Part shown: positions 16,807 to 41,650 of the stretch, in pieces
How the letters are laid out: each line of letters opens with the position of its first letter
How positions within the stretch are numbered: the first letter of the stretch is position 1
From: Amoebophrya sp. A120
Taxonomy: Eukaryota > Protista > Dinoflagellata
Assembly: GCA_905178155.1 (NCBI GenBank)
Contig: CAJINV010000004.1
Location: 7,334,548-7,398,547, forward strand
Direction: 5' to 3'
DNA: 64,000 bases
Notes under the pieces: generated by a model
The model's database searches: none
Seen by the model: the letters and a program-made list of their open reading frames with translations, nothing else
Told to the model about the DNA's origin: nothing
Program-made: the position numbers and the translations under genes

Positions 16807-17713
16807 GACTTTGATGTGGGGTTTAGTTGACACGTAGCAGAAGTTGAAAATTCGCGAAGCCACTCTGGAGAAGCATTCGAGAGCGAAAAACAAAATTTCA
16901 AATCATGGAGGTTATACATAGCAGACATAGAACTACTTCTTCAGGCAAGGTGTACAGCCGAAAATTGACACGTCAAGTTTATTATAAACAAGGTAGAGGG
17001 CGGAAAGGCGAAGGCCTTCCAAAATCAATGGGTGCTTATAATGGGATCTGCAGTACATCATCATGCGTGCCATCAAAGAAAAGGAAAATGAAAAAATTGA
17101 TCACGACTCCGTGAAGATGATCAAAAAGAAAAAAGTTCGTCGCGACAGGGACAGGTGCAGTCTACCAATGAATAAGCATATAGCAAAGCCAAACCCTCTC
17201 CCTCAACTTCAACAAATATGAAATCCGCTCTTTTCTCTTCCACCGGTGCACTACAACAGGGGGCACTTTGTTCCATAGTTTAGATAAGTATCTGCTAAAA
17301 ATGGTCGCGGACAGCTGTATCGACAAACCAGACGATGACCATGCTTACCTGAAAAAAATCTCACGCGCTTCCGCAAGCCGAATCCTAGGCCACCTTGCTT
17401 CATGAACATGACGTCAGATGGGCTGTACATCGATCATGATAAACAACAAGCCCGTGAGAAAAAAAATCTCGGTGGACATATCAACCAAATACGCGACGAC
17501 GAGAGCGCGCTTATTTGTTCAATTGTCAAAAGTAAAAACATTCTGAGTTATTAACCAAAACTTGTGCTACTTACTTCATCCTCCTCCTGTGATGATGGTC
17601 GTCTTGCTCGGGTGGCATAAAAAAGACGAAACAAAGCGAAACAGAAACTTACTGTTTTTTTTTTCAATCTTGCGTTTTATTCCTATTGTGTAAAGTTCCT
17701 CCTTTGTGTTTCT

Positions 17714-19840
17714 TTATGTCAGGTCCGCACTGAGCAGGTTCGGTTCCGACGCCGAGCCAGCGTTCCGGCGTTTTTGACTACTGACCAGCTGCCGCGCAAA
17801 ACCGTTCAGCACTCGCGACCCGCGCATTTGCTCCTCAGTGCCAGGCTTCGACATCAAAGCGTCCATGAGCATCTTGCGGCGGTAACTGAAGAAATTTGTG
17901 ATGCTAATCATCGTAATGCATTGTAGCATCGCGTGGAGCACTATGCATGACAAAAAAAAACAGAAGAATCAATACGAGCTGACGCGAAGAGGAAATCCAA
18001 GTTCTTCGTCGCCGAGGACGCCGGACATCATGTTTTTCAGGATCCACAAAACCCTTTTCCGGTGCTCTTCTCCCTTCTTTGATTGCGACGTGCAGGAGAG
18101 CATCTGGAGGAAATCTGCGAACGACGTTATCCCTCCTTTCGGCAGAATACGAAGCAGCTGCTGCCGACTCTCGCATAGCCCGAAAGCTGTGGGAAAGGAA
18201 GAGACCAAATTATAGAAGCTTGTCATGCAGAAGGAGGCTGCGAACGCTTTGCGATGCCGATGTCAATGTCGCAATACAATCAAATCCAAAACTAGACTCA
18301 TCCACTAGAGCTAGATGAAGAGAGAGTAAGAGACTGAATCCAATTTCTCAGATTGTAAACCTTTACCGACGAAGAAGTCTTCTATGCTGGCGACCGGGTT
18401 GTTTGCGAGCGTGTCGTAGTATCGCTTGAGTTATGCATCGCAAAAGTCAAATTTTCGCACTGACTAGTACTATAAATCGCATCACAAATCATGTTTCTAT
18501 TCATGATGAATAGATAACATGATTTGTAATGCGGAGTTGCCTCAAGAAAGAGATTTGCAATGCATGACTGCAATTAGAAGTACGAGTACGAGACTTTTGC
18601 AGCGCATATGAGTTTGTGAACTGCAAAAGTATCGTACTCGTATAAATGCATTACAAATTTCCTCAGCATGAAAGGTAAAATTTGTAATGCTGATTTAACT
18701 TAAGAGAAAGATTTGTAATGCATGACTGCAATACGAGTACGATACTTTTGCACAGGATAGAGTTTGTGCCGCTCGCTGGTGGAAAAGTCCGTGTACTCCG
18801 GCTTCCCACGGTATTTCAGCCACCGGCATCAAGTGCAAATATGTCTGGGTCTGGAAGGGTCCAACTTGTGATGCTGTCTTTGGATTCTAAAAGCGTCTGT
18901 ATTGCATGACCAGCAAGAGGAGTCCAGTTTGTGCTACGCGGGGAGGGCATTTGTCATGCGTAATAGGCATCAGGAAGCCTTCTAAAAATCAGTGATCCTA
19001 GGTCATGCATTACAGGCGTCATGGATCATGCAAAACATGCATGACAAACCTTACATCCTTCCAGACCGAGACATATTTGCAATGCATAACCGGTCACGCT
19101 GGTCTTTCACCAGCAGCGAATGTGGGTCGTCGATCAGGGCCTTCCCGGCGTTGCGCAGCGCACTGCTGCTTTGACTGCGGTCGTTCGGCATCTCTTCTCT
19201 ACTTTTGGATGTCGCGAAAGCTGCTTTTGTCTATATATAGTACTTCGGAGGCTGATGTTCAGATGCTTGTTCGGTTCCAGAATACACATGCTACTACACC
19301 AGTGTTTTCTCTCGCAATCGACACGCAATAGTGCACGAGCGCGCCGCCGAAGAACCCCGATGTTATTATGGCACGAAGACTCGTCGAATTTCGGAAAAAA
19401 TCAGAATGCAAGCCTCACTTTCTCTCTTCAGAGCAAGCCCTCCTTGCAGTTCCTCCACATAATTTTCTGCCGAGTTATTTCACCACGAACTTGTCGAAAA
19501 AATGAACTACACGCGAAAGAAACGACGATCGAAGAGAACGCTGAGGGGCATCAACTGACAGGTCCACCAAACGAGAGGAGGAGCCGGAAATTTTTCCAGT
19601 ACTGCCAACGCCTCGAGATGATAAAAGCTACGTTGTAATTTGAAGATTGAAGAACTTTTCTTGCCCTGCCGTGCTTCTTCGTGGTGGTTGTTTATTTCTA
19701 TTTCATGCCCTACTGCTCCATCACGGAAAATGCAAGCGCAACTTTGATTTAGTACTGACAAAAGGCCAGCACAATAAACAGTTGTTACCTCAGCATTCCC
19801 GTTCTGCAGGAGGTCCTGACGTCTCAAGAATAAACATTTG
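17714..19840 (-). CDS. Hypothetical protein, probably a degenerate EF-hand protein; multi-exon (start approximate)
   Basis: Exons RWLKYRGKPEYTDFSTSERHKL / KRYYDTLA / FGLCESRQQLLRILPKGGITSFADFLQML / YRRKMLMDALM; these exons are conserved in the diverged copy at 33171-34861. Confidence 0.6.
18432..18608. mobile_element. Introner family A
   Basis: TIRs; TSD tgagt. Confidence 0.85.
18615..18759. mobile_element. Introner family A, 6 nt from the previous copy
   Basis: tgtgaactgcaaaagtatcg...cgatacttttgcacaggata; TSD gagtt; the site is empty in the paralogous copy. Confidence 0.88.
18827..19088. mobile_element. Introner family B
   Basis: Family B TIRs (left end cat instead of tat); TSD accgg. Confidence 0.88.
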
Positions 19841-22593: not shown

Positions 22594-25500
22594 TTACATT
22601 ATGTTGATCACACTACTGCAGCTCCCTCCACCCCCACCACCGCCGTGTTCCAACACAGACTGCAATTGCAGTTCAAAGTTCACGAACACGTCCTCCTCCC
22701 AGACCTTACTCGCAGTCGACTGAAGAAACAGGTGGAATTTCGGTCCGCGCAGGTGCCGGAAACAATTCACGATGAGTGCGCGGTAGTCTACTACTTGTTG
22801 TGGTGCTTGTTGTTGATGTCCCTGAAGTTCTTGCAGCTGCTGTTGTCCACCGCGCGCGCCCGTAGAGGGTGTACTAGCACTACTTCTACTTGGAGAAACC
22901 TTTTGTCGCAACGGTCCGCTGCGGATCATATGTGCCGCTGAACAAATGGTCGGCGCGCCACTAGTACTAGCACCACCTCCCTTTAGCGCGGCTTGTTGCT
23001 GCTCCACATCGTTCCCTTCCTGGAGCAAATACTCGGCGAGCAGATCGAAAAATACTTGGCCGTAATCCGCTTGCAAGGCTTCGAAAATGCCATTCCGGAT
23101 TCCGTTGCAACTGCTGGGCCACCCGTGGTATGTTTCCAACACTGTGAAAACGATGCGCTTTAACAGGGGAATCGGCGAGACGAGTTGGTGCTGTGAGGGT
23201 TGTCCTCCTTGTTGGACCTGCTCCACGAGGACAAAGTGTTCTTTACAACCGCCGAGCAGTCGCTCCAGCATTTGCAGAAACGAGCGGAAACAGGACTGAA
23301 TGGTCGCAAAATCTTCGTACATTCGGCTTGCAGCGGTTGTAGTTCCCGCACCGGATCTTCCCAGCAATGCGTTCGCTAAATTCATCTTCGACGGCGGTGT
23401 CAATTCCCGTTGTAACAACGCAACGGAGATATTGCTGTCGAGATTGGACGAACACTTCTCCGAGGAGAGGCCCTTCCCAAAGTTATTTCCCCCGACAAGG
23501 CCGGTGGGACTCGACATCTTTTGCTTGGCGGTGTCTGTTTGGTAGTTCCGAAGCTTGAAATCCTTTTCTAGGAAGTTCAGAATCCGCTCCAGAATGAACT
23601 GAAACCAGTGGTTCCCCAGGGAAAGAATTGCGGCGGAAGCGGTGGTCGTATTTATTTCAAGGCCTCCTGGTCCTGTAGTAGTCGTCGTGCTGGGCTGCTG
23701 TAGTAGTTGCCGTGCATTCGGAGCGAAAGTAGAGCTCAGGCCAGATAATCCAGCATCCTTTCTACTCCCGCCCCCGCCGAGCCTGTGTGCCTTCGTCTTC
23801 GTTGACTTCGGGGCGCACTTGTTAATCCAAGCGAGGAGTATATCGCACGAAAAAACTGTTTCACTGTGGTGATTTTGCAGAATCAGCATCACAAGTTGGT
23901 TACGCATGACACTAAAAATCTGCCATGCGGGGTTGCCAAGGGAAAACACAGCTAGAAATCCATTGTCTTGCATGTGTAGCATGACACACACTTCTCCGGT
24001 CCATTTTCTGCATCACAAGTTCACAGTGAAACAGTTTTTTCTTGCGATAGAGTAGGTCGCAGATCGGCAGCAGAAATTTCGGCGAGTGTTCGTCCAGGTT
24101 GAGGGGCGCGAGCATGGGGTAGAGCTTTTCGTTCATCAAAGGTTTGAAAAACTCGTGCTCGAAAGTTGATGTGCTTGTTGTGGTATCCTGTGCAAAAGTA
24201 TCGTACTCGTATTGTAATCATGCATTACAAATCCAGTTCTTAAGGCAAATTAGCATTACAAATTTTATTTCTCATGCTGAGGAAATTTGTAATGCATTTA
24301 TACGGGTGCGATACTTTTGCAATTCATATGTGGCAGCCGCTTGGTTTGTGGTTGTTCCTTGTCCGTGTGGTCCAGCCGGCGCATAAAAACTAGTACTTGA
24401 CGCAGCCCCACCTAGAAGTCCTCCGGCCACCAAAATCCCCTTCTGTAACCCGTCTGTGAGCAGCAAGGCGAGGAAGATTGGGTGGCGGATCCGGGTCAGA
24501 GAGTGGAGGAGGGTTTGCGTTAGAAAGTCGGTTAGGAGGCACGAATTTTCTGTCTGTGCGTTGCTGGTGTCACCGACGCCGCCAGGTGGTGTAGTTGGAC
24601 TTGCATTGTTGAACAGGCTCGCGCTACTGCTCGAACTTAAACCTGAAATCATCTTCGCACCACCTGCTACCGCACTACTACCAGTACCAGTACTAGCACT
24701 CGTCCGGGCCTTCCCGAGCAAATCGAAAAGGCACTGGTAAAAATGTCTGCTGGCGTTCACCAAGTAGAATTCCAATTTCGACGCGTCAAAATCCTCCAAT
24801 TCTTTTCTCAAATCCTCGTCGGAAATCGTGAAATCCTCCACGTTAGTCAGGCTGCAGGCCTCGTATAACAGTGCACACCCCCCCCTCCCCCTCATTTGTC
24901 ATGCAAAATACTCAATCCACCCTTTGCTTCTTGGCACTGTTTGCATGACAAGTTCTGGTAGCCCAAGTAGCACTACAATCCAGCGCAAATCTGTCATGCA
25001 AAACTGGCATTCTTGCTGATGCTTGTATTGCCGTTAATGCTATACAAATGAGGGGGAGGGGGAGTTGTGCACTGTTATACCTCGGTGAGGAAATTCAAGA
25101 ACCAAGTCGTCGAGGCACGACCACTCGCAGAATTGAAATTATGTTGAGGAGCTGCAGCGGAAGTAGACACTATTGTTGTTGAGCCGTCTCCTTTTTGTAG
25201 TAGTGCTACCGGTCGGCGTNCGAACAAGAGGGTGGGAATCCAGACCGAATTGCAAATCCGAAAAACAGGAAAATGCAGCAGGTGCCACACTCATGTCGAT
25301 GATCCAGATCCATATAATTTATTGAGAAGGGATCCGGGTCAGAGAGTGGAGGAGGGTTTGCGTTAGAAAGTCGGTTAGGAGGCACGAATTTTCTGTCTGT
25401 GCGTTGCTGGTGTCACCGACGCCGCCAGGTGGTGTAGTTGGACTTGCATTGTTGAACAGGCTCGCGCTACTGCTCGAACTTAAACCTGAAATCATCTTCG

Positions 25501-28500
25501 CACCACCTGCTACCGCACTACTACCAGTACCAGTACTAGCACTCGTCCGGGCCTTCCCGAGCAAATCGAAAAGGCACTGGTAAAAATGTCTGCTGGCGTT
25601 CACCAAGTAGAATTCCAATTTCGACGCGTCGAAATCCTCCAATTCTTTTCTCAAATCCTCGTCGGAACTCGTGAAATCCTCCACGTTGGTCAGGCTGCAG
25701 GCCTCGTATAACAGTGCACACCCCCCCCTCCCCCTCATTTGTCATGCAAAATACTCAATCCACCCTTTGCTTCTTGGCACTGTTTGCATGACAAGTTCTG
25801 GTAGCCCAAGTAGCACTACAATCCAGCGCAAATCTGTCATGCAAAACTGGCATTCTTGCTGATGCTTGTATTGCCGTTAATGCTATACAAATGAGGGGGA
25901 GGGGGAGTTGTGCACTGTTATACCTCGGTGAGGAAATTCAAGAACCAAGTCGTCGAGGCACGACCACTCGCAGAATTAATATGTTGAGGAGCGGCTGCAG
26001 AAATGTTATATGTTGAGCTGTCTGCAGTTGATGTGGTCGTGGTCGTCCCCATGCTGGTCAGCAAATAGGCCTGGAGCGCGCTGTCCGCAGCCCGGGCTGC
26101 GCGTAGAGGTGTGGAGCCGGGGGCTGCAGCTGCTGGCGCTGAGGTTGACATCAGCGTCGCTCCACTTATTTGGAAGTTGTTCATAAAAATATTACTTCCC
26201 GCGACCACTCCCATCGGCAAGACTTGAATCAGCAAGGAGAAGACCAAGGCTAGAACCTTCTCCCTTTCCGGGTCTTCCACTTCGGTCAACAGAAACACGA
26301 TGCTCCTTAACCTCCGGAGTAACAAAAGCATCGTCAGTTCCTTGTTCGGAAGAATGTTGTTGTTTTGATAGGTCGTTGTCGCGAAAAGTTCGAATGTGTG
26401 CGTCCCCCGCAAAGAATAGCGCTCAACATGATCTACTTCGGGCGCTGCACCTCCCGCCATTGCGGAGGTCGAAGCGCCAGCACCTCCAGCAGGAGACCCA
26501 GCAGACCATCGCACGAATTGAGCGAAGTCATGGGCTATTTTTGCCGCGTCAACAGAGTTGCTCATATTATCGGTCCCCGGGGTAAAAGTACCACTGCTTA
26601 TTTGTTCATCGTGTTGCAAAATGCTTCTCCACACGTGTTCGGGCAGCAGTCCGGACAGTTGCAGTAACCCAAAGGAATTCAGCAACAGTCTGAAAACACG
26701 CTTGCTAAACTTCTCACCGCTTTCTGGCAGTCCCGCGTATTGATGAGACCGCACAACACACGTCGCCGCCCCGTACAGGTCTTGATCGATGCGGAAAGCG
26801 TCAGAGACCGCAATCAGCTGCGAATCAGATTTCCGCTTCAACTGGTCCATTGTCGTCGCGGGCGACTGTGCGGCGGGAGATATTGTTGAAGAGGTTCTTC
26901 CCTGAAACAGCTGCTTCCCCGTTTGTAGTAGGGCAGTTGAAGCAAATCCGTTGATCGCCGGGTGGAGTAATCTGACGTAAACAGCATCCACGTGATTCAT
27001 CAACTCGGGAAAGCTGTTTTTCACGTTTCTGTACTCGCCGAAGTACCCTAGCACCTCTTTCAAGACCGGGGCACAGGACAGCGCATCGATTTCCAAGTGG
27101 TTCATGAGGAAATTCAGCATTTTCAGAACCAGCTCCGGCGCATCGGTACTTGCGGTGAGAAGTGCGATGTTGTGGCTGCTGAGATGTAGTTCTTGTGCGG
27201 TGAGCTCCTCCTGCTCTGTCGGTGTTATCGTGGCGTTGTAATTTGCAGCTCCACCAATCGCATTTCCCTCGAGCGTACAGCGACACTGCTCGTCTAGGAG
27301 CGGGATGGTTTTCAGGATAACGGCGGCAATGTTCTCTACGAGGCTTTTTTGCAGCTGGAAATAAAGAGCTTGTGCTGACCCCCTTTCGGTTGAGTTCTTC
27401 GCGTTCATCTCGTTTTGTGTGTAGTGGTACCTCCTCGCGTCGATTTCGCACAGCCTTCCCAAAAAATTCAGCAGCTCCACCGGCAGCTCTCCAGACGTTT
27501 CCACCAGATCGTCCATGTACAGGGCGTCGGCTTCCACCAGACCCTTCGCGAGAAACGAAACCACTTCTGTTTCCGACAAATCCCCCTGCACACTCGGCTC
27601 GTTCAAGCGCTGTAGAAAGAGCGAATACAGTTCCGCCGCGGCGTTCGGGTTCACCCGGATCCAAATGTCGAGTAAGTCGGCGAGGAGATCCGTCGCAATG
27701 TCGCGGCTAATGTCCTGCTTTGTACTGCTGTCCGTGTCGATGTCATCTTCGGGATTATGCAGTGCAAAAGCATCGTATTCGTATTGCAGTCATGCATTAC
27801 AAATCATTTTTTTAAAGGTAGATCAGCATTACAAATTTCATTTCTCATGCTGAGGACATTTGTAATGCATTTATGCGAGTACGATACTTTTGCACTGCAT
27901 AGGCGGGGTTGTTGTTGAACATCAAGCGGGAATCGTTATCGTTTAGTACCGCTTTACTCCCGTTATGAACATTCGTTGTGTTCAGCAACTGAAAGTGGGA
28001 AAAAAGCCCGCGCAGGCACGGCTGGGATAACTGCTGCAGGAGTTGCAACACAAACTCCGACGGCAGCACCTGTTCCCGATTAAGCTCTTTCAAATGGGAA
28101 AAGAAATTACTCAGCGGCCCCAAGTCCCCCGGTCGATATTCGAGCAAGTAGCCGCAAAGCGTCGTGAGGATCGTGTGAATTGGGGTCGATGAGGACACAG
28201 CTCCTGCGTGACTTGTTTGTGAAGATGGTGCGCTGGAAGAAGTACTTCTACCAACGGCCCGCGCAACAACATCTTCCTGCTCGGCAGTGGCGAAAAAGAA
28301 CTGCGTGTACAGCTCAGCAAACATCCAGAGCAGTGTGCTGACATCGTAGAAGACGTCTGGAGTTGCGGATGCTGGTGGAGGTGAATCATGCGCCGGCGTC
28401 GTTCTTACTCCAATCGGTTGCACTAGAAGCTGCCGGGCAAATCTTTCTAAGAAGGCCAAAGCCTCTTGGAGTAGAATGATTTCGCCTGGATTTATTTTTA

Positions 28501-30566
28501 CCGGAGACGCCCCAGCATTTGAACTATCTCCGCTGGACGAACAAGACAACATCGAAGACCCCCCTTGATTTATTCTTATTGGCGAGGACATTGACGAAGT
28601 TGTTCCAGCCTGTTTGTCCGCTCGCTTCCACAGCACCGATGCGGACCTCGCTTTCGCCATTCCTTCGACGAAATTGGAGATGGCGTTGTGCTTGTGCTGC
28701 GTTGCACCTCCCTCCGCTCCACTAGCAGACGATGAAAACAGCAGCGCGGCCGTGGTGGCACTCAGTAGTAGAGAGTGGGAGAACGGACAGACGTTGTCGC
28801 AAGAAAAAAACTGCGTCACTTCTGTGAACTTACTTGGCACGTTCTTTGCGCGATGGAGCACAGAAGTATTTGCCTTGCTACACGACCTGGTGTAAGAGAT
28901 TGGATCTTCTTAAAACGTGCTTTCCCTTGGCGGGAAGCGCCACTGCACATGGCAGATTTTTTATTTCTGTGTCATGTGTAAGAACATTTGCAATATCATC
29001 ATAAGTAGTGAAACGCTTTTTTCATCTTGGGATAGATGTGCTGCTTCGTGTACTCCTGAAGCAGTTGCTGGGCGGAGGCGTACAAAGCGCTTCTTTCTGA
29101 TTCTGCGTGCGCCTCGTTATTGCCGCTGGTGTGTGAATCATTTGGTCCTCCGACAAAATGCAGCACCTGTGCCACCAATGTGAAGATCGGCACCCGGAGA
29201 CGGTCACGCAGTACCACCCCGTACGCGACTTCCTCGAACCTCTTCATCGGCTGTTCCACCTCCTCAAACAAAGCTATCAGCAGGTCGAGGATAACTTTTG
29301 TAGAAAATCTCAGCTCCAGCTGCTCGCACTGGTGCAGCGGCGTCGTTGATGTAGTAGTCCAAACGCAAACCCGGTGCGCGGGCGCCAGCGGAAAGTGCTG
29401 GAAGAAGATCTCTGTCATTTGCCCGATTTCAGCCTTATCAACATTTTCATTTATCAAATGTAAAAGTGTCTGGGTCTGGAAAAGTGTAAACTTGTCATGC
29501 AGATTTTCCATGACCCATGAGGTCTCGAATGCGGGACTTAGCATGACAGACTCTACGAGGTCTCTCCCATGCCTATCCTGCATGATAAAATCCCTTCGAA
29601 CTTGGCCAAAAGTGGGCGGCTTTTGGCACTCATGCAACACAGATATTTGCATGCTCCAGACGTACCATGACAAGTTGGCACCTTCCAGACCCAGACATTT
29701 TTACATTTGATATCATTCGACGACGCGCGATTCTCCATGTGCGTGAGCGCCTCGGCCAGTTGCTGATCGGTTCGTTCCTGGTCCTGCGAAGACGAAGTCG
29801 AAGAGGTAGTTGGCGTGTTATCGAAATCAATACCTCCGTGCAGCTGGCCGAGAACGCATCCTGGGAGAAAGCTGCGGAGCGTTTGCTCGAACGCAGGTGA
29901 TCGGAGAAGGGTGGCCGCGAGCGTGGGGATCAGCTTGGCAATAACTGGCTTGCTAAGGGTAGAAGTTGTGCTGGGGGTCGCTGCGTTCAGGGTGGATTGT
30001 GGCCCTAGATGAAGTGCCTGTCCGTTGTTTTGCGGCTGGCTTCCAGACGTCGAGGACACTGGTGAGAAGGACAGGAGTTTGGCTACATTTCGCAACACAA
30101 ACTCACACTTGTCCCGACTAGCCGCCCGGGTGGGATCATTTATTGCTCCCGGCCGCCCAGTGCTACTAGCTGATCTACTGCCTCCGCTTGCAGTGGTCGT
30201 GCCTGGCCTGTCGGCGTTCTGACACAAAGATCTGGGAAACTCTTTGGATAAGTCGAGCAGCAACTTCGCAGCGAAAAACTTCTCGGTCTCGCTGCCGTCG
30301 GGCGTGATGAGCAGCGCGATCGCGAGCTCGGCGGCTTGGCCCTCGGCCGCAGTCCTCTTCGCCTCGCTGCAAAACTCGGTAAGCCACCGGTCGGCATCGT
30401 TCCGGGAGAGGTTCTTGCTGCCGGGGTTGTTTATGCTTCCTTGGTAGAAAGCTCGCAGCGTGTTGCGCAATTCCTGGAACAAGACGGGAGTGCTTTCGAC
30501 TGTAGCGCGGACGCGGGAAAGGTCGGCGGGGGAGAGGCCGAAATTTGCTGGAGCACGACTGGTCAT
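22594..30566 (-). CDS. Large importin-beta-family (transportin-3/importin-13-like) HEAT-repeat protein, multi-exon
   Basis: N-terminus LRAFYQ...RNDADRWLTEF...AIALLITP...EKFFAAKLL resembles the importin-beta N-terminal domain; followed by Leu-rich helical exons; interrupted by introners and by a probable assembly duplication at 24487-25330. Confidence 0.6.
24184..24328. mobile_element. Introner family A (opposite orientation to the 12642 copy)
   Basis: TIRs; TSD tgtgg. Confidence 0.9.
25707..25922. mobile_element. Introner family F (same insertion repeated at 24864-25079 and 36087-36302)
   Basis: TIR tataacagtgcaca-C-rich / G-rich-tgtgcactgttata; TSD cctcg. Confidence 0.88.
27756..27901. mobile_element. 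Introner family A, TSD decayed
   Basis: tatgcagtgcaaaag / cttttgcactgcata; flanks gggat and ggcgg do not match. Confidence 0.8.
29452..29712. mobile_element. Introner family B
   Basis: Family B TIRs; TSD tcatt. Confidence 0.9.
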
Positions 30567-32380
30567 TTTTTAGTGTAAAAGTCTCTAGGAAGATGCTTGA
30601 AGTTGTAGCCAGGCGGGGGAAGAAGATCAACCCTTTGCTCGCCTCTTATGGCCTGCGAGTAACTGTCTGACATATACAGCTAAAGAATCCTGAGAGCAAG
30701 TCCTTTGCGAAAACTCCTGAGAGCTTAGGCACTACAACAAGACCAAACACCACCCGTTTTAGCGGTGAACGACCAAGTGTAGGGAGTCGCACAGTATGAG
30801 TGAGTCCGAAAACTCACTGCTGCTGCGCTTCAGATAAGCATCACACTACCTCCTCATCCGTGTGAGCAGATCAACCTCCAAAGAGCCGCCAGTGCTGAAC
30901 AACCCGCCTCACGTGCTCAACCTGACGTCAAACCGGATCCAAGAACCACAGCGCTACCAGGGGTCTCGCTGACTCTCGAACCGCCGGAGCGGAAGGAGAG
31001 GTATACCGACGCCACCGGGGGCCACAGGAAAACACGGAGTTATGCCCTGCGCCGCCAGTTGCCACCGCCTAGGCTTGGAGCCTTGCCTTTTCTTTTCTTT
31101 TATATGAGTTTTCTCCTTTCCAGCCCGGCGGGTGCTGGAAGGTGGCGCGTTTTTCTTTCTTTTACTGTTTTGCGCTCTTGAGTTTTTTTTTTTTTATTCT
31201 TTGGTCCCAATCTTGGCACCTCAAAGAATCTTTTAGGAGGTTGCGCGATAAAAGGAAGAAAGTCACTGGGGGTTTTCATCTTTGCAAAAGATCCGCCGGC
31301 CTTGCCAGCCCTAGTCTGCCCATTGGCCAAACGGGAAAAAAAAAAAAAAGAACAAGCCCCACTCTCCCCCCCCGATGGACTAGATTCTTGCTTTCCTCAG
31401 AGTGGTGAGGACAGAAAGAATACTTTATGGCAACTACGGAAGATCATCAGAAAGAAAAGTAAGAATCTCGCAAAAGAAAAAGACACCGATGGCATCTCTC
31501 AGGCAAGAGCAAGAGCTGGACTGCCTTTAATACCTGGCTTTCACCTAGGCATTACAGACATTCTAGCGGAACATCAAGAGCTGGAGAGCTACATCTAGAG
31601 CTTCAATACAAAATCAAGAAAACGGCTCCTGGTGTTCATTTTGTTCCATTGCAAAAAATCCCGCTGCAGGTTGTATCGTTCATTTTCATCTTTAGGTGTG
31701 GGTTATAATCAATGCTCTTTTGTAAGAAAGATCAATTGGAAAACTACGTGGTCACAACTGAATACTGTGTATCAGGTAGTAGAAGCAGATACTTCAATAA
31801 TTTAAGCAGATTGCCCGGCGCCAGAGAAACTGCGGCTGCCTTGGCGAAGGCAGGGGAGAGTCGTGCGTCGCCGATCGATCGCACAAGGCGTCCGGCAGCT
31901 TGTAAGAAAGCCGGGCGCCACTACTGCAGAGTTAACTCCAAGGAAGGTCGATCCCTACACCGCCGGGCGCAAAAAGTTGCCGCATGACCATGAGTTTTGA
32001 TTTTCCAGAAACAACACAACGAAAAAAGGTAGGGCGAAACGTGGCGCGCCTCAAACAAAGACACAATCCGTTGGCTGGCTTTGTCGTGGCGCCGGTGTCC
32101 CATGCATGCCCATACCCTTAGTCCCTCGCGAGTCGCCACCGAGCTCAGGAGCGGAATCCCATGCAGCGGCGCCTGCACGACAGGCGCTACCCTCGGACAA
32201 AAGGCCCGCACCAACGCACGCACCACGCTACATGCGCCTTAAGGAGCGCAACCACACGGCGCCGGTGCGCGCGCACTATGCCCCATAAGGAAGGAACCAG
32301 ACAACCGCGGCGCCCACCTCCTCAGGAATGGCCCGCCGTTGTCGTTGCTCTTGCTCCGCACTGGGAAAACAAGAAATCCT

Positions 32381-32787
32381 CGCCTCCGCGCGGAGGCGTG
32401 GCCCACGACTTGTTTCCGAGGCCAGTGCTGGATGCAACAACAAAAAAAATTTTCGGCGCGCTGCGCGCGCCGTTCCGAAAATAAGAAATCGACCCCTCCG
32501 CGCGGAGGGGTCGATTTCTGATTTTCGGTTTCTTCTTCCGCCGCTGGCGGCCCAGAAAGAAACAGGCCCCTCCGCGCGGAGGGGGCGGTTTGTTTGATAG
32601 CCGGACCGCTACCTTTTACCCAGAAAACAACGAAAGTCGGCGCTTTTGGTACTTCCGGGTCCAAAAGAAACCGCCCCCTCCGGGCGGAGGGGCCGGTTTC
32701 TTTGTGGGCCGCTAGCGACGCAAGAAGAAGCCGAAATTTCCTGTCCAAGGAGTCACGACATTCTCACTCAACCCTCCACACGGAGGG
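32381..32787. repeat. Cluster of five palindromes with core CCTCCGCGCGGAGG
   Basis: Copies centred near 32390, 32501 (perfect 36-bp palindrome 32484-32519), 32575, 32683 and 32780. Confidence 0.9.
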
Positions 32788-33170
32788 CCCAACTTCTTGG
32801 CTTTGAGAATTGTTTGCGCGACCTGCGCGCGGAGCATTTGTTTTTGTTCGCTTTTAATGTTTTCGCGAAGTGGCGCCGCGGCTCGTGCAGTGGCTCCGCA
32901 CGGTGGCCAGCAAGCTTTTTTTTATTCCCGGCCACCCTATGAGACGCGCACGCGCAACACCCCTGCGCCGAAACCTTTGGCGCGCGCGAGTAAAAACGTC
33001 GCGGCGGGCTGCTTTGCTTCCGAGCGGCCGCGTGTGCCTCTACAGATGTGCCGTAAAGACTGAAAACGCGACGCCACATCGTAAAACAAGGGCAAGGCAA
33101 CGCAGGCGCACGAGGTGAGGCTGCATAGCGCAAAAATGAAGATCAATTGGAAAACTACGTGGTCACAACT

Positions 33171-34861
33171 GGAGAGTTGTATCGGTAAACCAGACGATGA
33201 CCATGTTGACTTGGAAAACATCTTCCGTAGTGCCGCATGCCGAAGCTGCCTAGCCCCACTTGCTTCATGAACATCATGACGTCAGAGCTGTACATGATCA
33301 TGATAAACAACAAGCCCGTGAAAATCTCGGACATATCAACCAAATACGCGACGAAGCCGCGCTTATTTGTTCAATTGTCAAAAGTAGGAACATTCTGAGT
33401 TATTAACCAAAACTTGTGCTACTTCATCCTCCTCCTGGCATGATGGTCGTCAGTCTTGCTCGGGTAGAAACAAGACGAAACAAAGCGAAACAGAAACTAC
33501 TGTTTTTTTTCAGTCTTGCGTTTCATTGTGTAAAATTCCTGCTTGTTATTTGTGTTTCTTTATGTCAACTCCGCACTCAGCAGGTTCGGTTCCGACGCCG
33601 AGCCAGCATTCCGGCGTTTTTGACTACTGACCAGCTGCCGCGCAAAACCGTTCAGCACTCGCGACCCGCGCATTTGCTCCTCAGTGCCAGGCTTCGACAT
33701 CAAGGCGTCCATCAGCATCTTGCGGCGGTACCTGAAGAAAAATGTGATGCTGATAATCATACATTCTGCATTTCAATTTTCGTATCGTGTGGAGCACTAT
33801 GCAAATGCATGACAAAAAAAAGAAGAATCAATACGAGCTAACGCGAAGAGGAAATCCAAGTTCTTCGTCGCCAAGCACGCCGGACATCATGTTCTTCAGG
33901 ATCCACAAAACCCTTTTCCGGTGCTCTTCTCCCTTTTTTGATTGTGACGTGCAGGAAAGCATCTGCAGAAAATCTGCGAACGACGTTATCCCCCCTTTCG
34001 GCAGAATACGAAGCAGCTGCTGCCGACTCTCGCATAGCCCGAAAGCTGTGAGAAAAGAAGAAACCACATTTCAATAAATTAGAATCCAAGTAGGCTAGGA
34101 ACGCTTTGTCTTTGTGTTGATATGGAAATACCACTAAATCCAAAACTGTTTTCATCGTGATCCCCTAGAGCTAGATGAAGACAGCGATGGATAACAATAA
34201 ATCCAATTTCAATTTTTATGTCAAAGCGTATAATCTTTACCGACGAAGAAGTCTTCTATGCTGGCAACCGGGTTGTTTGCGAGCGTGTCGTAGTACCGCT
34301 TGAGTTATGCATTGCAAAAGTATCGTACTCGTATAAATGCATTACAAATTTTCTCAGCATGAGAAATGAAATTTGTAATGCGGATTTACCTTAAAAAAAA
34401 GATTTGTAATGCATGACTGCAGTGCGAGTACGAGACTTTTGCAGCGCATATGAGTTTGTGCCGCTCGCTGGTGGAAAAATCCGTGTACTCCGGCTTCCCA
34501 CGGTATTTCAGCCACCGGCATCAAGTGCAAATATGTCTGGGTCTGGAAGGGTCCAACTTGTGATGCTGTCTTTGGATTCTAAAAGCGTCTGTATTGCATG
34601 ACCAGCAAGAGGAGTCCAGTTTGTGCTACGCGGGGAGGGCATTTGTCATGCGTAATAGGCATCAGGAAGCCTTCTAAAAATCAGTGATCATAGGTCATGC
34701 ATTACAGGCGTCATGGATCATGCAAAACATGCATGACAAACCTTACATCCTTCCAGACCGAGACATATTTGCAATGCATAACCGGTCACGCTGGTCTTTC
34801 ACCAGCAGCGAATGTGGGTCGTCGATCAGGGCCTTCCCGGCGTTGCGCAGCGCACTGCTGC
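33171..34861 (-). pseudogene. 5'-truncated diverged duplicate of the gene region at about 17309-19170, with introns retained
   Basis: Collinear similarity including the 3' flank, exons and introners (A at 34306-34450, B at 34519-34780); ends abruptly after gcgcactgctgc. Confidence 0.85.
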
Positions 34862-35538
34862 GCCGCTCTCATCCAACTCCTTTTCATCGCTACTCATTCA
34901 GAGAGTGATGAAAAGAGAGATGGTAGCAAAAATGAATTCATCCAACTGCACCGCAGCGCAACACAGATTTCCGCACTACCCAGAATTAGCATGACAAGTT
35001 CCAGCGTTCCGGAGGACCCAGACATATTTGCAATGCATATCCCCACCTGGTAATATTCATCAAAATACGCGGAGTGTAGAATCCCATACGGGTCTGGCGT
35101 ATAGCTTTCCCAATCCGGGCAGACCCCGCGTCTCTCGCAACACTGCTTTTCATTCAGCACGTTGTCGCAATTCCGAGAAAAACACAAATTGTCGCCGAAT
35201 TTGTAGCCCTCGGGGTTTTCGAACTGATGAATCAAGGTCTCGTGTCCCGGGTGTGGGTCTGGCACTTCGATTTCCGTTTTTTCATGCCCGATGAACCCGG
35301 AGGGGATTTTTTGCAAAGCTCGTCCTCACGAGCTCGTGAGAAATTACCTCACGTACCGTTTCCGTTTTTCTCATGCTCGTGCGGTTCGGGGGCTGAATCG
35401 TAGTGCGGGTAGGTTTTCCAACTCGGATTCCGCTCCGACGCATACAAAGGTTCGCCATAACCCTTCGAGCTGCAGGAATCTTTGTGCGTGTCCAAATGTT
35501 CGAAGCAGTTGTCCACACACCCACTGTTCACGATCGTC
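34862..35538 (-). pseudogene. Fragment of an unrelated Cys-rich gene carrying half of a family B introner
   Basis: ORF pieces GCVDNCFEHLDTHKDSC... and ...CFSRNCDNVLNEKQCCERRGVCPDW...; only one family B TIR (ends 35039); source locus not in this window. Confidence 0.55.
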
Positions 35539-35710
35539 GGGGGAAGAAGATCAATTGGAAAACTACGTGGTCACAACTGAATAATGATAGGCAAAAATGG
35601 CGAACAAGAGGGTGGGAATCCAGACCGAATTGCAAATCCGAAAAACAGGAAAATGCAGCAGGTGCCACACTCATGTCGATGATCCAGATCCATATAATTT
35701 ATTGAGAAGG

Positions 35711-36441
35711 GATCCGGGTCAGAGAGTGGAGGAGGGTTTGCGTTAGAAAGTCGGTTAGGAGGCACGAATTTTCTGTCTGTGCGTTGCTGGTGTCACCGAC
35801 GCCGCCAGGTGGTGTAGTTGGACTTGCATTGTTGAACAGGCTCGCGCTACTGCTCGAACTTAAACCTGAAATCATCTTCGCACCACCTGCTACCGCACTA
35901 CTACCAGTACCAGTACTAGCACTCGTCCGGGCCTTCCCGAGCAAATCGAAAAGGCACTGGTAAAAATGTCTGCTGGCGTTCACCAAGTAGAATTCCAATT
36001 TCGACGCGTCAAAATCCTCCAATTCTTTTCTCAAATCCTCGTCGGAAATCGTGAAATCCTCCACGTTAGTCAGGCTGCAGGCCTCGTATAACAGTGCACA
36101 CCCCCCCCTCCCCCTCATTTGTCATGCAAAATACTCAATCCACCCTTTGCTTCTTGGCACTGTTTGCATGACAAGTTCTGGTAGCCCAAGTAGCACTACA
36201 ATCCAGCGCAAATCTGTCATGCAAAACTGGCATTCTTGCTGATGCTTGTATTGCCGTTAATGCTATACAAATGAGGGGGAGGGGGAGTTGTGCACTGTTA
36301 TACCTCGGTGAGGAAATTCAAGAACCAAGTCGTCGAGGCACGACCACTCGCAGAATTGAAATTATGTTGAGGAGCTGCAGCGGAAGTAGACACTATTGTT
36401 GTTGAGCCGTCTCCTTTTTGTAGTAGTGCTACCGGTCGGCG
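35711..36441 (-). pseudogene. Internal fragment copy of the importin-like gene, including its family F introner
   Basis: Near-identical to 25331-25976, followed by a homologous but diverged tail (TTIVSTSAAAPQHNFNS versus TYNISAAAPQHINS). Confidence 0.8.
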
Positions 36442-37497
36442 TGCTATGTAAGGTTAAGTCCCTAGAGCACCAGGGGAGCTAAAAAACAAGTTCTTCACCG
36501 CCGGGCGCTACGCTAGTACGATTGTTTTCCTTTTTTTTACTAGAGCTATCGCCAAACCCCTTCACGTTCACGCCTCTGTCTCAGATTCTTTTACGTATTT
36601 CCTTTCACTTTCTCGCACAAAATGTCACTTTTTTTTTGTTTTCCGCCACGAACCCTTGCTGCTCACAGCTTCCTCAACCTCAAGCGCGTTTTCTTCTTGG
36701 AAAACGCAGCACACCGCGTGCCACTACCGAATCAGCTGTACCTCCTGGTCCACCTCCATCGGTGCCGGGCCGTTGGCATCTTGCGGCGGCTGCCCCTGCA
36801 GCTGGCTTTTTCGCCATTCGTCCACCAAAGGTTTCAAAGCATCCTGGATTTTTTGCTGCATTTCCAGCCGGGTTACGCGCTCCGTCACCTGGCGGAGGTT
36901 GAAGGGGCTTTTTTCGAAACTGCGCACCGGGAAGGGGTTCTCGCTGTGGCCGTCCCGGTCCGCAAGCTCCACGCATAGAGCCCCAGCGTGGTACACAGGC
37001 TCAATGGACGCAATGGAGAGGGGCGAACTCGGGGCTGTAAGAGCTCCGGCGAGTGCTTTCATGAGCTAGACCTGATGGGGTTTGGCGTACCGGAACTTTA
37101 GGAGTGCAGCCGGTTTTTTCATGAACTATAGCTCGACCACGCATGCTATTACTAGTAGAGGCGGCTAACGATAGTGCTTGTACCCCACCCTCTATACAAA
37201 TTGCCCGGGCCTTACAGCATGCTTACTGGGTGGGACTGGGATATTTGGCCATGCCCGGGCTTACTGGGTGGGACTGCCCGGGCCTTACAGTATCGCTGAT
37301 CGCTGATCGGGGGCTTGGCGTACCGGAGCTTTAAGAGTGCAGCCGGTGTTTTCATGAACTAGAGCTCGACCACGCTTACTGTACTAGTAGAGGGGGAAGA
37401 AGATCAATTGGAAAACTACGTGGTCACAACTGAATAATGATAGGAGCGAGGTAACAAACCCAAACGAGAACTTCGCGGTTGAGTTCTCATCCGGCCG

Positions 37498-38508
37498 GCC
37501 GGCCGGATGAGAACTCAACCACATCTGTGGCGGATTGAAATCGGCCGGCCGGTCGTCCGGGTCCCCTTCTTCCCTCCTGGTCGACGGCCTCACTCTTCTT
37601 CTTGATTGTCACCCCCCAGCTGCGCAGTTTCACTTCTACGCAAAAAGCCCGAGCTTTGTCATGCAAAAGCTGCGGCAAGTGCCTAAAGCCAAGAAGCAGA
37701 AGCTGCGTTGTTTGCTACTTCTACTGCGAGTCGCCGGAAAAGACGATAAGCCTGGGGGCCCAGAGGATGGGGGCACAGCCCAACGCGGGCGCGCAGCGCT
37801 GGCTGAGTGACCATGCCGGCTGCGGCCGGGCGCCGACGAACCCCACCAGGAAGCAAAGCAACAGCGTACAACTTGCGCGCGCGGGCCATCCTGCTGCGCC
37901 GCCTTCGCGTGTGGGAAACGATAAAGATTGCTAGGGCGCCAGTAGCCCGGCGGAGGCACACATAAGCGCGGCCCAGGCCATTTGCATTGTCCCTGCTATC
38001 GGGTGGGGGCAGCTTTGGAGCCCGACGCGCCGCAGGATTCGGGCGCCGGCAGAAACAAAGGGCAGCGCGCGCGGCGCGTCGGAGATTGGTTGCCCGGCGC
38101 GCCGAGCGAGGCCCCGCCTCCCATCACGCAAGTCGGTGGACGCGCGAAGCGCGTCCGACCCGGATCCGGCGCATCTGCCAACTGTTGCGCCGAAGCAAGC
38201 ATGAGCCAGCGGAGAGGCGCGCGGACGCGCTTTCTGGGCCGCGGCCCGCGCGGGCGCGCACAATGCGCCACCTTTAAAATTTTCCAACTTCTGCCCCGCT
38301 GCATAGCGTAGCTTCTCTGTATTCACAGCAGGCGCGCGTAGCGTTTTTGTGTTGCACACGGCCCCCGGCGAAAGTGGAGTGAGGGAAGCGTCGGTCTCCA
38401 GCAGGCCGCCCCCCCCCCTTTCGCCCGAGCGAATGGCGGGCCAATTGACCAGGACGACCAGCCGGTCGATTTCCGCCGCTGATGTGGTTGAGTTCTCATC
38501 CGGCCGGC
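37498..38508. mobile_element. GC-rich ~1-kb element with ~60-bp imperfect terminal inverted repeats
   Basis: gccggccggatgagaactcaaccacatc...ggtcgtcc (37498-37558) is inverted at 38452-38508; no recognisable ORF. Confidence 0.7.
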
Positions 38509-39169
38509 TCAAGAAGATCAATTGGAAAACTACGTGGTCACAACTGATAGGTCAGATCAGATCAGAATATTACCGTTCGGTATGCTCGCACTCGTTGGTG
38601 CGGCGGTACAACAGTTTTTTGGAGAGAAACTCAACAGACACCCAGTGAGAGATAGATAGATAGATAGAGCTGGACGGACTAGTGGACAGAGAAACGACGA
38701 AAGAGAGCTATAGTGGGCCACTACCTGTACTCAAAAATAAAAAAACGTTGATAAAAAGTAAAGGAAAAAGGACATCTTACGACCTTAATTGAGAACTAGC
38801 CTTTTTGTTACAGTTATACTCGTGAGCGAAAAATACAATTTTAGATGGGGACCAGGCGGCGAGCTGTGCGAGATCTACTTTTTGAACCTTTTGTAGTGAG
38901 GAGAACTAACTTTTTCACGTATTTTTCGGACCATAGCATGCGGACAAGGCGAGACGTTTCTACTGGAACAAGGTGTAGACGAGCGCTTTAGCGGGGAGAT
39001 AATAATACTTCTACTTACCACTAAAAAAGCGCACGCTTTTCCATACACAAACTTCTCACCTCCTGCAGCAACACGACCCTCACTTCCGCTCGCTCGTATG
39101 TCTGCGTATTGGTAGAAAAGCACAGGCGGAACTCGCATCAGGCATCGTGATTTACTACGCAATCCCGCT

Positions 39170-39450
39170 CCCTGCGGTAGCGCCAGTTGGATATTCCGCC
39201 GCATGATGCGGATGACCAACTCGTAGCAACAGGCGAAATCGCTCGGACTGCGACGATCGCCCTCAGCAAAGCCGGAGCTCAGGTAGTAGACTTCACTCAG
39301 TCCCCGCGACGTGCGGCAGCGGTAGCGTGTCAACAGGTGGAGACGGCGCGCCGCCATCCCGTACGCTGTACCTTCCAAACCCCAGACCTGGAGCAACTTT
39401 TTGAAAACTGCCTGCGGAAAAGACGGATACGCCTTCTGCACAACCCCCTC
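39170..39450 (-). mobile_element. Non-LTR retrotransposon reverse transcriptase fragment
   Basis: VQKAYPSF...LLQVWG...TRYRCR...GLSEVYYLSSGFAEGDRRSPSDFACCYELV matches the RT motifs DxxKAFD and GxxQGDPLSPxLF in degenerate form; no YADD seen downstream. Confidence 0.7.
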
Positions 39451-41650
39451 CAGAATAGGAGGAGGCCTCCAGAAATAGGGGGAAGAAGATCAATTGGAAA
39501 ACTACGGGTTCACAACTGAATAATGATAGGTAAAAATGGCGAACAAGAGGGTGGGAATCCAGACCGAATTGCAAATCCGAAAAACAGGAAAATGCAGCAG
39601 GTGCCACACTCATGTCGATGATCCAGATCCATATTTATTGAGAAGGGTTGACGATACGCCTCCTTCTACCCCTTCCTCGTTCTATCTGAAGAACCTCCCG
39701 CAATCCCATGCTCGTCACACTCTAGCTTTTATAGGAGGGGAGCTTTTTTCTTGTCCTTGGAGGTGTACAACTTCTTACATATACATGATCATCTTTATGA
39801 AATAAAGCTTGAGCTCCGATTCTGGATTGCCTTTCATGATCGATCGCTGCTTCCTCAAACCTACTTGCAAGCGGCCCCGTCTCAGAAGCGACGTGACACA
39901 CTCCTAGAGAAAAAGAACAAGATGCTGAGCAGCCTTCAAGAACTGCAGGCTGTGTCAGTCCTCTCGGAACGGTGGTAGTCGTGCAAACAATTCGGATTGT
40001 TGAGACAAGGTGCGGGCTTGATTTTTTAGTGCCACCTTCCGTGTATGGTAATAACTGCGGAGTTTTTCCTGGAGTTGTCCCTCCACAGCTGCAGATGAGA
40101 GAGCCAGCAGAAGCACGAGCAGCACCAGGTTGTTAATGTGATGCGTGCCACACGCATGTGGAGTCAAAGTAATCTGGTGTCGTTTATTTGTTTCGAACTG
40201 AACAAGCGAAGTATTTAGCAAAATAAATCGCGATCGAGGCGAAACTCGCTCGCATTATTGATGATTACATGCGGAAGTATCGAATTTGTGTAGTACACGT
40301 CGGCAGCACATCATATTGCAGTTTCGGTGCCGGCTAGATGAGGTGAGAAAGCGTCGAAAATCTGGGACGTTGTATTTACATTTACTTTTTCTAAGTCTAA
40401 CTCTAGCTAGTACGTAAAAAACATTTCTCATCTAGGATGATTGATGCTTGGTTGAAGTACCAAAGCAGGAACGCAAGGGGCTCCTGTGTTCGCTGCATAA
40501 GGTACTGTACGATTTATTAGCCGGAATTAGATGATCAAAGAGTTACGACCGAAATTGAAGCCTTCGAAAAAATCCGTGGAAAAACTTTTCGGAAAACCCC
40601 AAAAAGCGGTCGTCTCTGTGGTTGTAAGGTCGTTTTTGAGTGCTAGAACTAACAGTAGATCTTTCGAAATGAATATGAACCACTCTTCTACATTTTAAAT
40701 TCCGCATGCGGTGAGACAAAAGAAAGGCGAAAGTAGCACAAGTAGTCGTGCAGTGCTGATGTAGGTGTAGCATATTAGTCGCTTGGTATTTTTTATCTGG
40801 GAGGACGATGAGCAGGTAGTACCTACAGTTGTGAACCCAATATCGCTTTAAGTAAATACTTACATTCTTGTCGTACAGCTGCAAAAATCTTAATTTACAA
40901 CATGTTGGTCGTTCGTTTGGTAGTTGGTATAGCTTTAGCTTGTTCTTTACTTTCATCTGTTGATGCTCCTGTATACATTGCCATTGATATTTGTACTCCT
41001 ACTCATTATAATTGATTCTGCCGTTCCAAAAAATCTGTTCTTTTTTTTGCAGCGATTCGATAAAAGCTTTTGTAGGCCGTTTCTGCTACAAGTGCTTACT
41101 TCCTCGAAGTAAGAACATGAGCCGGGTCGTGCGCGCCGTGCGTCGGCGTCTCCACTTGATCGATGTGCGTTCGCTTTTTTCGACTTCGCATAAATCTAAA
41201 GGAGATACTGATACAATGTGTACAGATTTTTCCATGTTGGGTCAGCATCTTCATGGAAGTCGCATGATCAGTGGAACAGAATCGTCGCTAGGTTTATTCC
41301 GGTTCGGGGACTACATGCAGAACAAAGACTAGAACTACACGCGTCCCGCGCCGATTGTCGTCTTAATTCGTAACACTCAACAGTAAAAGCAAAAGTAGAA
41401 AAGGAAAAGCAAAAAGAATCTCCTGAAAAATTAAGCCGTATTAAACCATCCTTCCATCTGCCACTCTTCGTCTTCCCATCCTATCATCTATTAATACAAC
41501 ACACGCACTTTGACAACTTTCGTTCTCCCAAGAACGCTATTTACGAGTACAACTATGCAGCCATGGTTGCGGTTTCCATTTCCTGTTGTCCGTCGAGGAC
41601 CAGCACACCACGACGGTGGAGTAGATGACCGGTGAGGCAACAGAAGTCGC

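What the first reader, a model, noticed from the sequence alone, without database searches (positions are those of the whole stretch)
30615..39647. A 9-kb array in which one recurring junction sequence separates captured host-gene and transposon fragments
Seen: seven co-oriented copies of one sequence occur 0.9-2.4 kb apart. Their left ends are nearly fixed (four start at GGGGGAAGAAGATCAA, the rest within about 10 nt). Their right ends are variably truncated (about 16, 37, 34, 173, 53, 41 and 170 nt). At least two copies sit exactly at the breakpoint where a duplicated host segment begins (33171 and 35711, with 1-2 nt of microhomology). The spacers are unrelated to each other: copies of two nearby genes, a foreign gene piece, a TIR element, an RT fragment and a palindrome cluster. 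Every recognisable coding piece is minus-strand. Inference: a fixed start with a variable stop followed by foreign DNA fits repeated priming of synthesis on one template followed by template jumping (RT-mediated capture or templated break repair), iterated at one locus. The result is a repeat-spacer stack that could act as a sequence trap or memory locus. I know of no described system matching it.
Basis: partly seen in the sequence, partly recalled or inferred. Interest (0 to 1): 0.9.

Follow-up and report, generated by a model that had tools for sequence, protein, structure and literature searches.

The report
Self-renewing insertion hotspot with host fragments
In the genome of a marine parasitic protist, one short stretch between two genes likely received six successive insertions of repeats and gene pieces, each likely duplicating its landing site, which would explain the repeat-and-spacer look without a new memory system.

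Summary
The seven co-oriented copies (J1-J7) are real and at the stated places. J is not a high-copy dispersed repeat: depth at one core copy allows about 16 copies at most, while the neighbouring repeat end stands near 88. J7 runs on without a break into the 3' region of the upstream gene. J is therefore most likely native intergenic DNA duplicated at each of six insertions (8-173 bp, one end fixed within 9 nt), not a template primed again and again. A nested order exists after two boundary corrections, but 1209 of 5000 shuffles also allow one. The inserts are multi-copy repeats, a LINE reverse-transcriptase remnant related to Amoebophrya proteins, and host-gene copies that keep every intron. 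I favour DNA-templated repair of a recurrent staggered break (0.45) over LINE-primed capture (0.28). One of the array's junctions is formally bridged by a read contig, two more are indirectly supported, and none is confirmed by long reads. Unexplained: one captured gene differs from its neighbour at 15 of 15 exon sites silently, so it came from a working allele that seems absent from this genome. No evidence for a memory function.

The parts
30615..30630 (+). J1, target positions 1-16; its last 4-8 nt are shared with the end of the S1 repeat family
   Evidence: single-copy contig 29687-30652 joins it to the left flank
30627..31727 (.). S1: member of a multi-copy repeat family; its left end is a true family terminus; flanked by an 8-bp direct repeat of J positions 9-16
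   Evidence: 11 contigs with unrelated flanks stop matching at 30623 or 30626; terminus depth about 88 times single copy, inner part about 3-12 times
31728..31764 (+). J2, positions 9-45 (the last 2-4 nt may belong to S2)
   Evidence: another S2 copy repeats 31763-31784 in tandem (table 5c)
31765..33143 (.). S2: piece of a multi-copy repeat with a palindrome cluster (32365-32736), cut off at its right end with 6 nt shared with J3
   Evidence: a contig of depth 303 matches to 33143 and goes on with other sequence; palindromes
33138..33171 (+). J3, positions 8-41
   Evidence: no X1 contig was laid on 33144-33300, so this junction is unconfirmed
33172..34861 (-). S3a: near-complete copy of the gene at 17309-19169, lacking about the first 7 codons, with 3' UTR and all 4 introns
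   Evidence: 15 of 15 substitutions in three exons are synonymous, three introns differ by 12-27%, the 5' 410 nt are about 99% identical
34862..35538 (-). S3b: piece of a third host gene (exon 35040-35279 with flanking intron DNA and half an introner)
   Evidence: 35040-35279 matches the middle of a 10,231-nt contig of RNA-like run X5 with 1 difference; no homolog found
35539..35711 (+). J4, full 173-nt copy
   Evidence: a two-copy contig starts exactly at the matching breakpoint (25330 = 35710, depth 82)
35710..36445 (-). S4a: mid-gene copy of the gene at 25330-27789 with one introner; 4 differences in 647 nt, then about 85 nt of a diverged, frame-keeping version
36446..37391 (-). S4b: multi-copy sequence with the 3' part of a gene (36742-37002, 92% identical to unnamed protein P0009) and a 93-nt internal duplication
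37392..37444 (+). J5, positions 1-53
37445..38510 (.). S5: element with 66-nt terminal inverted repeats (37498-38508) preceded by a perfect fold-back of its own end (37477-37520)
   Evidence: multi-copy contigs begin at 37496
38511..38552 (+). J6, positions 6-54 with a 7-nt internal deletion
38548..39477 (-). S6: LINE remnant; RT piece 39175-39456, multi-copy low end with short tandem repeats, 13-nt micro-duplication at the junction with J7
   Evidence: 58% identity to Amoebophrya AT5.2 proteins P0001 and P0002; single-copy contig 39131-39561 bridges S6 and J7
39478..39647 (+). J7, full copy continuous with the right flank; likely the native intergenic sequence
39648..41325 (.). right flank: rest of the intergenic gap and 3' region of the upstream gene; present twice in the genome
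   Evidence: contig 39605-41325 at depth 83 against 42-45 for single copy; RNA-like contigs end at 39978 and 39990
29553..30568 (-). downstream host gene whose start codon lies 46 nt from J1

Best explanation
The repeated sequence is likely ordinary intergenic DNA that was broken and refilled six times, each event likely duplicating 8-173 bp of it around a newly copied-in insert, most likely by DNA-templated repair. Steps: (1) a staggered break forms, with the minus strand cut again and again in the same purine/pyrimidine tract (target positions 1-9) and the plus strand cut at variable distances (inferred from the copy ends; the nuclease is unknown); (2) a free 3' end primes on other DNA through 2-6 nt of microhomology and may switch template once or twice (microhomologies shown for S2, S4a, S4b; switches seen inside S3 and S4); (3) synthesis returns to the other end and the overhang is filled in, leaving the target twice (inferred); (4) because the target survives in every copy the site can be hit again, and the stack grows from inside (order compatible, not proven). 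A LINE may have made or used some of these breaks (S6, perhaps S1).
For: J7 is continuous with native right-flank DNA and J1 with the left gene; the reconstructed empty gap is 546 nt. J is low-copy: at most about 16 copies even if a whole bin's depth is given to it, and the only loose ends shown at J2 are J7-type sequence from this array (6 rows shown, 36 not). A nested order exists (20 of 720) once J6 is read through its deletion and J2's last 4 nt are given to S2. All introns are kept, there is no poly(A), S4a starts in mid-exon, S5 is an inverted-repeat element with a fold-back, and S6 has a junction micro-duplication. Two of three host donors have their closest match 5-16 kb away in the same orientation. 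The same layout, inserts strung into a re-replicated host segment, is described as cycles of templated insertions (PMC7025897, passages).
Against: The order test is weak: 0 valid orders with raw ends, 0 with only the J6 correction, and 1209 of 5000 shuffles pass. No empty site was seen; raw RNA run X9 gave 3 partial reads. The right flank exists twice, so one more J could lie elsewhere as a parent. DNA repair does not explain why S1 starts exactly at its family terminus, why S6 looks like a 5'-truncated LINE, or why S3a ends near its gene's transcript end (an X5 contig stops about 157 nt short). S3a-type alleles and the RT piece are single-copy, so their donors seem absent from this genome. 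The fixed left end has no identified cause. X1 and X2 may be the sample the window was assembled from.
Confidence: 0.45

Rival explanations
1. Same target-duplication layout, but every insert was made by a LINE: its endonuclease nicks the plus strand, its reverse transcriptase copies its own or other RNA, jumping onto unspliced nascent transcripts, and the cDNA is joined at the fixed tract by microhomology.
For: S6 carries a LINE RT piece, is cut at its 5' side and ends in short tandem repeats; relatives are long LINE-type proteins from Amoebophrya. All 5 readable coding pieces are in the sense expected for plus-strand cDNA. S1 begins at a family terminus and S2 is cut at the opposite end with microhomology. 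Variable duplications, 5' microhomology and template jumping are LINE traits (PMC2912911, passages).
Against: 5 of 5 complete introns kept; no poly(A); S4a starts in mid-exon; S5 is an inverted-repeat element; the RT piece is single-copy and loses similarity to its relatives below 39175, so no near-identical master copy is evident. An endonuclease domain in the relatives rests on recalled motifs only: Pfam, PDB profile searches and a fold prediction (mean pLDDT 28.5) did not confirm it.
Confidence: 0.28
2. One reading: J is the end of a mobile RNA or DNA template that is primed repeatedly, stops at variable points and jumps to foreign templates, so J is brought in with each unit.
For: Left ends fixed within 9 nt and right ends variable; raw ends do not fit a nested order; the J-bearing right flank exists twice, so a parent copy is possible.
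Against: The right flank is the 3' region of a resident gene and J7 joins it seamlessly; J has no structure beyond shuffles (z 0.58 and 0.44), no Rfam or tRNA match, low copy number, and no cover was reported that marks it as a discrete RNA.
Confidence: 0.1
3. The array is partly an assembly product: J-bounded modules from several loci joined through the 33-53-nt repeat.
For: The same scaffold has a clear mis-join involving J at the N at 25220. Most spacers are multi-copy. No X1 contig was laid on 33144-33300 and the depth-303 contig passes 33143 without a break. No listed contig spans the array.
Against: S6-J7 is bridged by a single-copy contig with 347 and 84 nt on either side; the left flank contig runs 22 nt into S1; the J4-S4a branch point appears in contigs. 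The window's spacer versions differ from the family majority at many sites, as a distinct copy would. Even a re-ordered set of modules would need the same capture events.
Confidence: 0.1
4. The array is one composite DNA transposon (Helitron-like or Pack-type) that gathered gene pieces and carries J as an internal repeat.
For: S1 starts A|TC as a Helitron 5' end would (recalled rule), intron-bearing captures fit DNA capture, and 9 nt at 30627 are the inverted match of 39643-39651.
Against: The contig 39605-41325 passes 39651 with no branch, so that is no multi-flank terminus; S1's right end lacks the recalled CTRR end; S2's family continues with other sequence rather than with J3; the RT piece and S3a are single-copy.
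Confidence: 0.07

Closest known systems
Tandem arrays from repeated insertion at one target site (R1 array of Drosophila; P-element and jockey dimers; 10.1101/158386, passages read)
   Same: Inserts separated by copies of the target; the target survives each event and can be hit again.
   Different: There the inserts are one family with a fixed duplication (33 nt for R1, 8 nt for P). Here six unrelated inserts, duplications of 8-173 bp, one end fixed.
Cycles of templated insertions (PMC7025897, passages read); MMBIR (search listing only)
   Same: Copied genomic pieces strung together inside a re-replicated host segment; intron-bearing DNA; junction microhomology and fold-back.
   Different: Described as somatic single events in cancer genomes; here apparently six heritable rounds on one 173-bp site in a protist, with transposon ends among the inserts.
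Templated sequence insertion polymorphisms, class 1 and 2 (PMC5110952, passages read)
   Same: Distant, also intronic, sequence copied into a site; class 1 has target duplications, class 2 has microhomology.
   Different: This locus has duplications without poly(A) or a TTTT/A site, so it fits neither class fully, and the events are stacked on one site.
LINE target-primed reverse transcription with 5' microhomology and template jumping (PMC2912911, passages read)
   Same: Variable duplications, one-sided truncation, microhomology at the truncated side; S6 is LINE-derived.
   Different: Unspliced host pieces, an inverted-repeat element as cargo, duplications up to 173 bp (that study collected 5-30 bp only).
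CRISPR arrays and piRNA-cluster traps (recalled, no paper read)
   Same: Repeat-spacer look; a repeat duplicated at each acquisition; transposon pieces gathered at one locus.
   Different: Repeat length not constant, spacers of 0.9-2.4 kb, no polarised growth, no small-RNA or effector evidence.

Membership tests
Multi-insertion array at one target (R1-type) | inserts separated by duplications of the native target | tested here: inconclusive
   continuity with both flanks and low copy number fit; nested order only after two corrections and 1209 of 5000 shuffles pass; no empty site seen
Multi-insertion array at one target (R1-type) | inserts belong to one element family with a fixed duplication length | tested here: not met
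   spacers share no significant similarity with each other; duplications 8-173 bp
LINE-made insertions / class 1 TSIP | poly(A) or tail at the 3' junction | tested here: not met
   no poly(A) at 6 of 6 low-coordinate junctions; a short tandem tail only in S6
LINE-made insertions / class 1 TSIP | spliced template for host genes | tested here: not met
   4 of 4 introns in S3a and 1 of 1 in S4a kept
LINE-made insertions / class 1 TSIP | one-sided truncation with microhomology | tested here: met
   S2 cut at 33143 with 6 shared nt; S4b and S6 with 2 nt
LINE-made insertions / class 1 TSIP | an intact master element with endonuclease and RT in the genome | tested here: inconclusive
   RT piece single-copy; endonuclease domain of relatives unconfirmed; no whole genome held
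Cycles of templated insertions / MMBIR-type repair | string of copied templates returning to re-replicate a host segment | tested here: met
   S3 and S4 are two-part chimeras flanked by J copies
Cycles of templated insertions / MMBIR-type repair | donor stays in place, giving a copy gain | tested here: inconclusive
   met for S4a (depth 82) and S3b (1 difference from a transcript contig); S3a-type alleles and the RT piece are single-copy
Dispersed SINE or MITE (J itself) | many dispersed copies with their own target duplications | tested here: not met
   at most about 16 copies by depth, 7 in the array; no unrelated flanks among the loose ends shown; a filter may hide records
CRISPR-like or piRNA-like memory locus | constant repeat and polarised growth | tested here: not met
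   repeat 16-173 nt; valid orders shown begin with the central insert
CRISPR-like or piRNA-like memory locus | small RNAs from the spacers that silence matching elements | not testable with these tools
   no small-RNA run was listed
Helitron or Pack-type DNA transposon | defined termini at both ends and no long target duplication | tested here: not met
   left terminus only; no branch at the would-be right end; terminal rules recalled

The most novel reading that the evidence does not exclude
The site is a sequence-directed, self-renewing trap: a nuclease cuts one fixed position in the tract upstream of a gene, every repair duplicates the site, and the patches come in part from a mate's or co-infecting strain's DNA, so the stack records foreign haplotypes and transposons and is itself transcribed. 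The silent-only divergence of S3a, the frame-keeping diverged tail of S4a and the donor-less RT piece would be such records.
Probability: 0.1. Interest if true: 0.8.

Novelty: new variant of a known kind. Interest (0 to 1): 0.43.

Why it matters
If the reading holds, it is a compact natural record of six capture events on one 173-bp target, with one break end fixed to 9 nt, in a lineage whose repair and transposon biology is barely described. It shows how a repeat-spacer array can arise with no dedicated system, and how intron-bearing gene copies and chimeras can be assembled. The donor-less functional allele would be direct evidence of genetic exchange between diverged Amoebophrya lineages, testable in strain collections. 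As it stands it is one locus in one assembly with no shown function.

Tried and rejected
No whole genome is held, so the genome-wide count of J rests on read-contig depth. J core patterns: 0 matches in viral and metagenome contigs; S1 end: 0 in viral contigs, 1 (itself) in the window. The hole at 33144-33300 in X1 is not counted as evidence either way beyond leaving the junction unconfirmed. Rfam: 0 matches at gathering score, 10 sub-threshold hairpin matches judged chance; no tRNA gene, so no tRNA-anchored targeting. J folds no better than shuffles. Pfam found nothing above cut-off in array frames. S3b had no homolog. Endonuclease domain of the LINE relatives: unconfirmed; the model was too poor for a fold search; the protein atlas did not answer. 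The one LINE-relative locus fetched (L001, 1 locus from 177 candidate stretches) showed no flanking direct repeat that would give a family signature; viral contigs gave none. The spliced-leader-like 8-mer before J6 needs only 2 nt beyond what the flanking repeat and J supply, so it was rejected as chance. Five look-ups of earlier findings returned nothing. Paper searches with no hit; with off-topic listings only. These do not show that nothing like this is in print; the library lacks most subscription papers.
Full report
Organism. The window is eukaryotic and Amoebophrya-like. It is dense with short inverted-repeat introns like the introner elements of Amoebophrya (PMC7789003; passages, section 5 and a supplement search read; figures not seen), and the RT piece has its best relatives in Amoebophrya sp. 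AT5.2. The strain was not determined. That paper reports that about 98% of genes in two strains lie in long co-oriented blocks; here 14 of 14 long frames outside the array are on the minus strand.

Observation. The seven copies are real. In positions of the 173-nt reference they span 1-16, 9-45, 8-41, 1-173, 1-53, 6-42 and 1-173. Copy 6 continues to 53-54 after a 7-nt deletion. An eighth piece (positions 63-173) sits at 25221-25331 right behind the only N of the window, between two copies of a 733-nt stretch. The left copy carries the array's alleles, while an X2 contig (24292-24897) shows the other three alleles at that place. That duplication is a scaffolding artefact, though it shows that reads joining J4 to the gene copy existed.

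Is the array real? Two DNA-like runs hold 0.75 and 0.72 of its words and may be the source sample. In X1, single-copy contigs have depth 42-45. One (39131-39561, depth 41.9) bridges S6 and J7; one (29687-30652) joins the left gene to J1 and 22 nt of S1, short of the tool's 31-nt rule but as expected next to a high-copy end; a depth-82 contig starts exactly at the J4-S4a breakpoint. The other junctions were not shown, nothing was laid on 33144-33300, and no listed contig spans the array. So one junction is bridged, two are indirectly supported and the order is unverified.

What J is. Depth in the bin holding J2 is 263; even if all of it came from the 37 nt of J, that is about 16 copies, and depth at J3 is wholly explained by an S2-family contig. 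The loose ends shown at J2 are J7-type sequence (6 rows shown, 36 not). By contrast the S1 end has about 88 times single-copy depth and 11 contigs with unrelated flanks. Summed contig depth is a rough guide only. J7 runs unbroken into the right flank, where RNA-like contigs of the upstream gene end at 39990 and 39978 (runs X3, X5, one study). Taking out the inserts leaves 546 nt between that end and the next start codon. J has no RNA structure or family match. I infer that J is native intergenic DNA. One caution: 39605-41325 is present twice (depth 83), so another J may lie elsewhere.

Reconstruction. If each insert duplicated part of J, a nested order must exist. With raw ends none does; with J6 read through its deletion still none; with J2's last 4 nt also assigned to S2 (another S2 copy repeats 31763-31784) 20 of 720 orders work, the three printed all beginning with S4 (duplication 1-173), then S6 (1-54) or S3 (1-41), then S5 (6-53), S2 (8-41), S1 (9-16). 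Shuffled ends pass in 1209 of 5000 trials, so this shows compatibility, not proof. The real peculiarity survives: the left ends of all six duplications fall within 9 nt of one purine tract while right ends spread over 160 nt.

The inserts. S1, S2, S4b, S5 and the low end of S6 lie in bins of about 6-14 times single-copy depth: they are pieces of ordinary repeat families. S1 starts at its family terminus; S2 is cut off inside its family at 33143 with 6 nt shared with J3. S5 has 66-nt terminal inverted repeats and a perfect 44-nt fold-back at its left end. S6 holds a 94-codon RT piece, 58% identical to P0001, a 1475-aa LINE-type protein; a full HMMER scan found only 5 relatives. S4b includes the end of a gene 92% identical to unnamed P0009. 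S3a, S3b and S4a are host-gene DNA with introns kept.

Mechanism. Retained introns, no poly(A), a mid-exon start, an inverted-repeat element as cargo, fold-back and micro-duplication at junctions, and local same-strand donors point to DNA-templated repair with template switches, the layout called cycles of templated insertions (PMC7025897, passages). LINE priming explains S6, the precise S1 end and the common orientation better, and its hallmarks are described in PMC2912911 (passages); it would need unspliced templates throughout. Repeated insertion into a surviving target is known from R1 and P elements (10.1101/158386, passages; its supplements are closed), and templated insertions with or without duplications from human polymorphisms (PMC5110952, passages). 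I put DNA repair at 0.45 and LINE priming at 0.28; both share the target-duplication layout (about 0.73 together), and a mixture is likely. The nuclease and the cause of the fixed end are unknown.

Unexplained. S3a differs from the gene at 17309-19169 by 15 substitutions in three exons, all synonymous, while three introns differ by 12-27% and the 3' UTR by 9%; its 5' 410 nt are about 99% identical. J copies differ by at most 1.8% in the full-length pair, so S3a diverged under selection before it was captured. Its alleles stand at single-copy depth in X1 (41 of 92 at 33936) and appear in RNA-like run X3 (97 of 196; X3 is only guessed to be RNA; X5 shows the host type alone). It lacks an in-frame start. 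The last 85 nt of S4a are likewise a frame-keeping diverged version of their gene, and the RT piece has no near-identical twin. The simplest account, inferred, is that the captures happened in another haplotype background, or from a homologous chromosome of a diverged mate, and recombination later replaced the donors.

Verdict. Observation confirmed; interpretation partly supported. A new variant of known processes, unusual for six heterologous inserts on one target with a fixed end, with no evidence of function. Interest 0.43.

Noticed in passing
window 9122-9148, minus strand: Inside an intron lies a 27-nt stretch matching L001:10516-10542 at 26 of 27 positions; it reads as the 3' end of the dinoflagellate spliced leader (label recalled) plus a GC donor and following bases, so it may be a relic or copy of a spliced-leader RNA gene.
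   Followed up: partly
L001:5278-10530: A full-length distant relative of the S6 LINE ends about 400 nt upstream of a spliced-leader-gene-like stretch in the same orientation; no matching leader piece was seen on its 5' side, so leader-gene targeting is not shown.
   Followed up: partly
window 24487-25331: 733-nt tandem duplication with a J fragment around the single N at 25220: a scaffolding artefact that splits a host gene in this assembly.
   Followed up: yes
window 39605-41325: The right flank, including the 3' region of the upstream gene, is present twice in the genome; the second place is unknown and could be another capture event.
   Followed up: no
window 18439-18616: The host gene carries an extra introner next to or within one that S3a has alone: an introner presence/absence difference between the two versions.
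   Followed up: no
window 32365-32736: Four related GC-rich palindromes nested in a larger inverted repeat inside the S2 family; they look like binding sites or an origin of an unclassified repeat.
   Followed up: no
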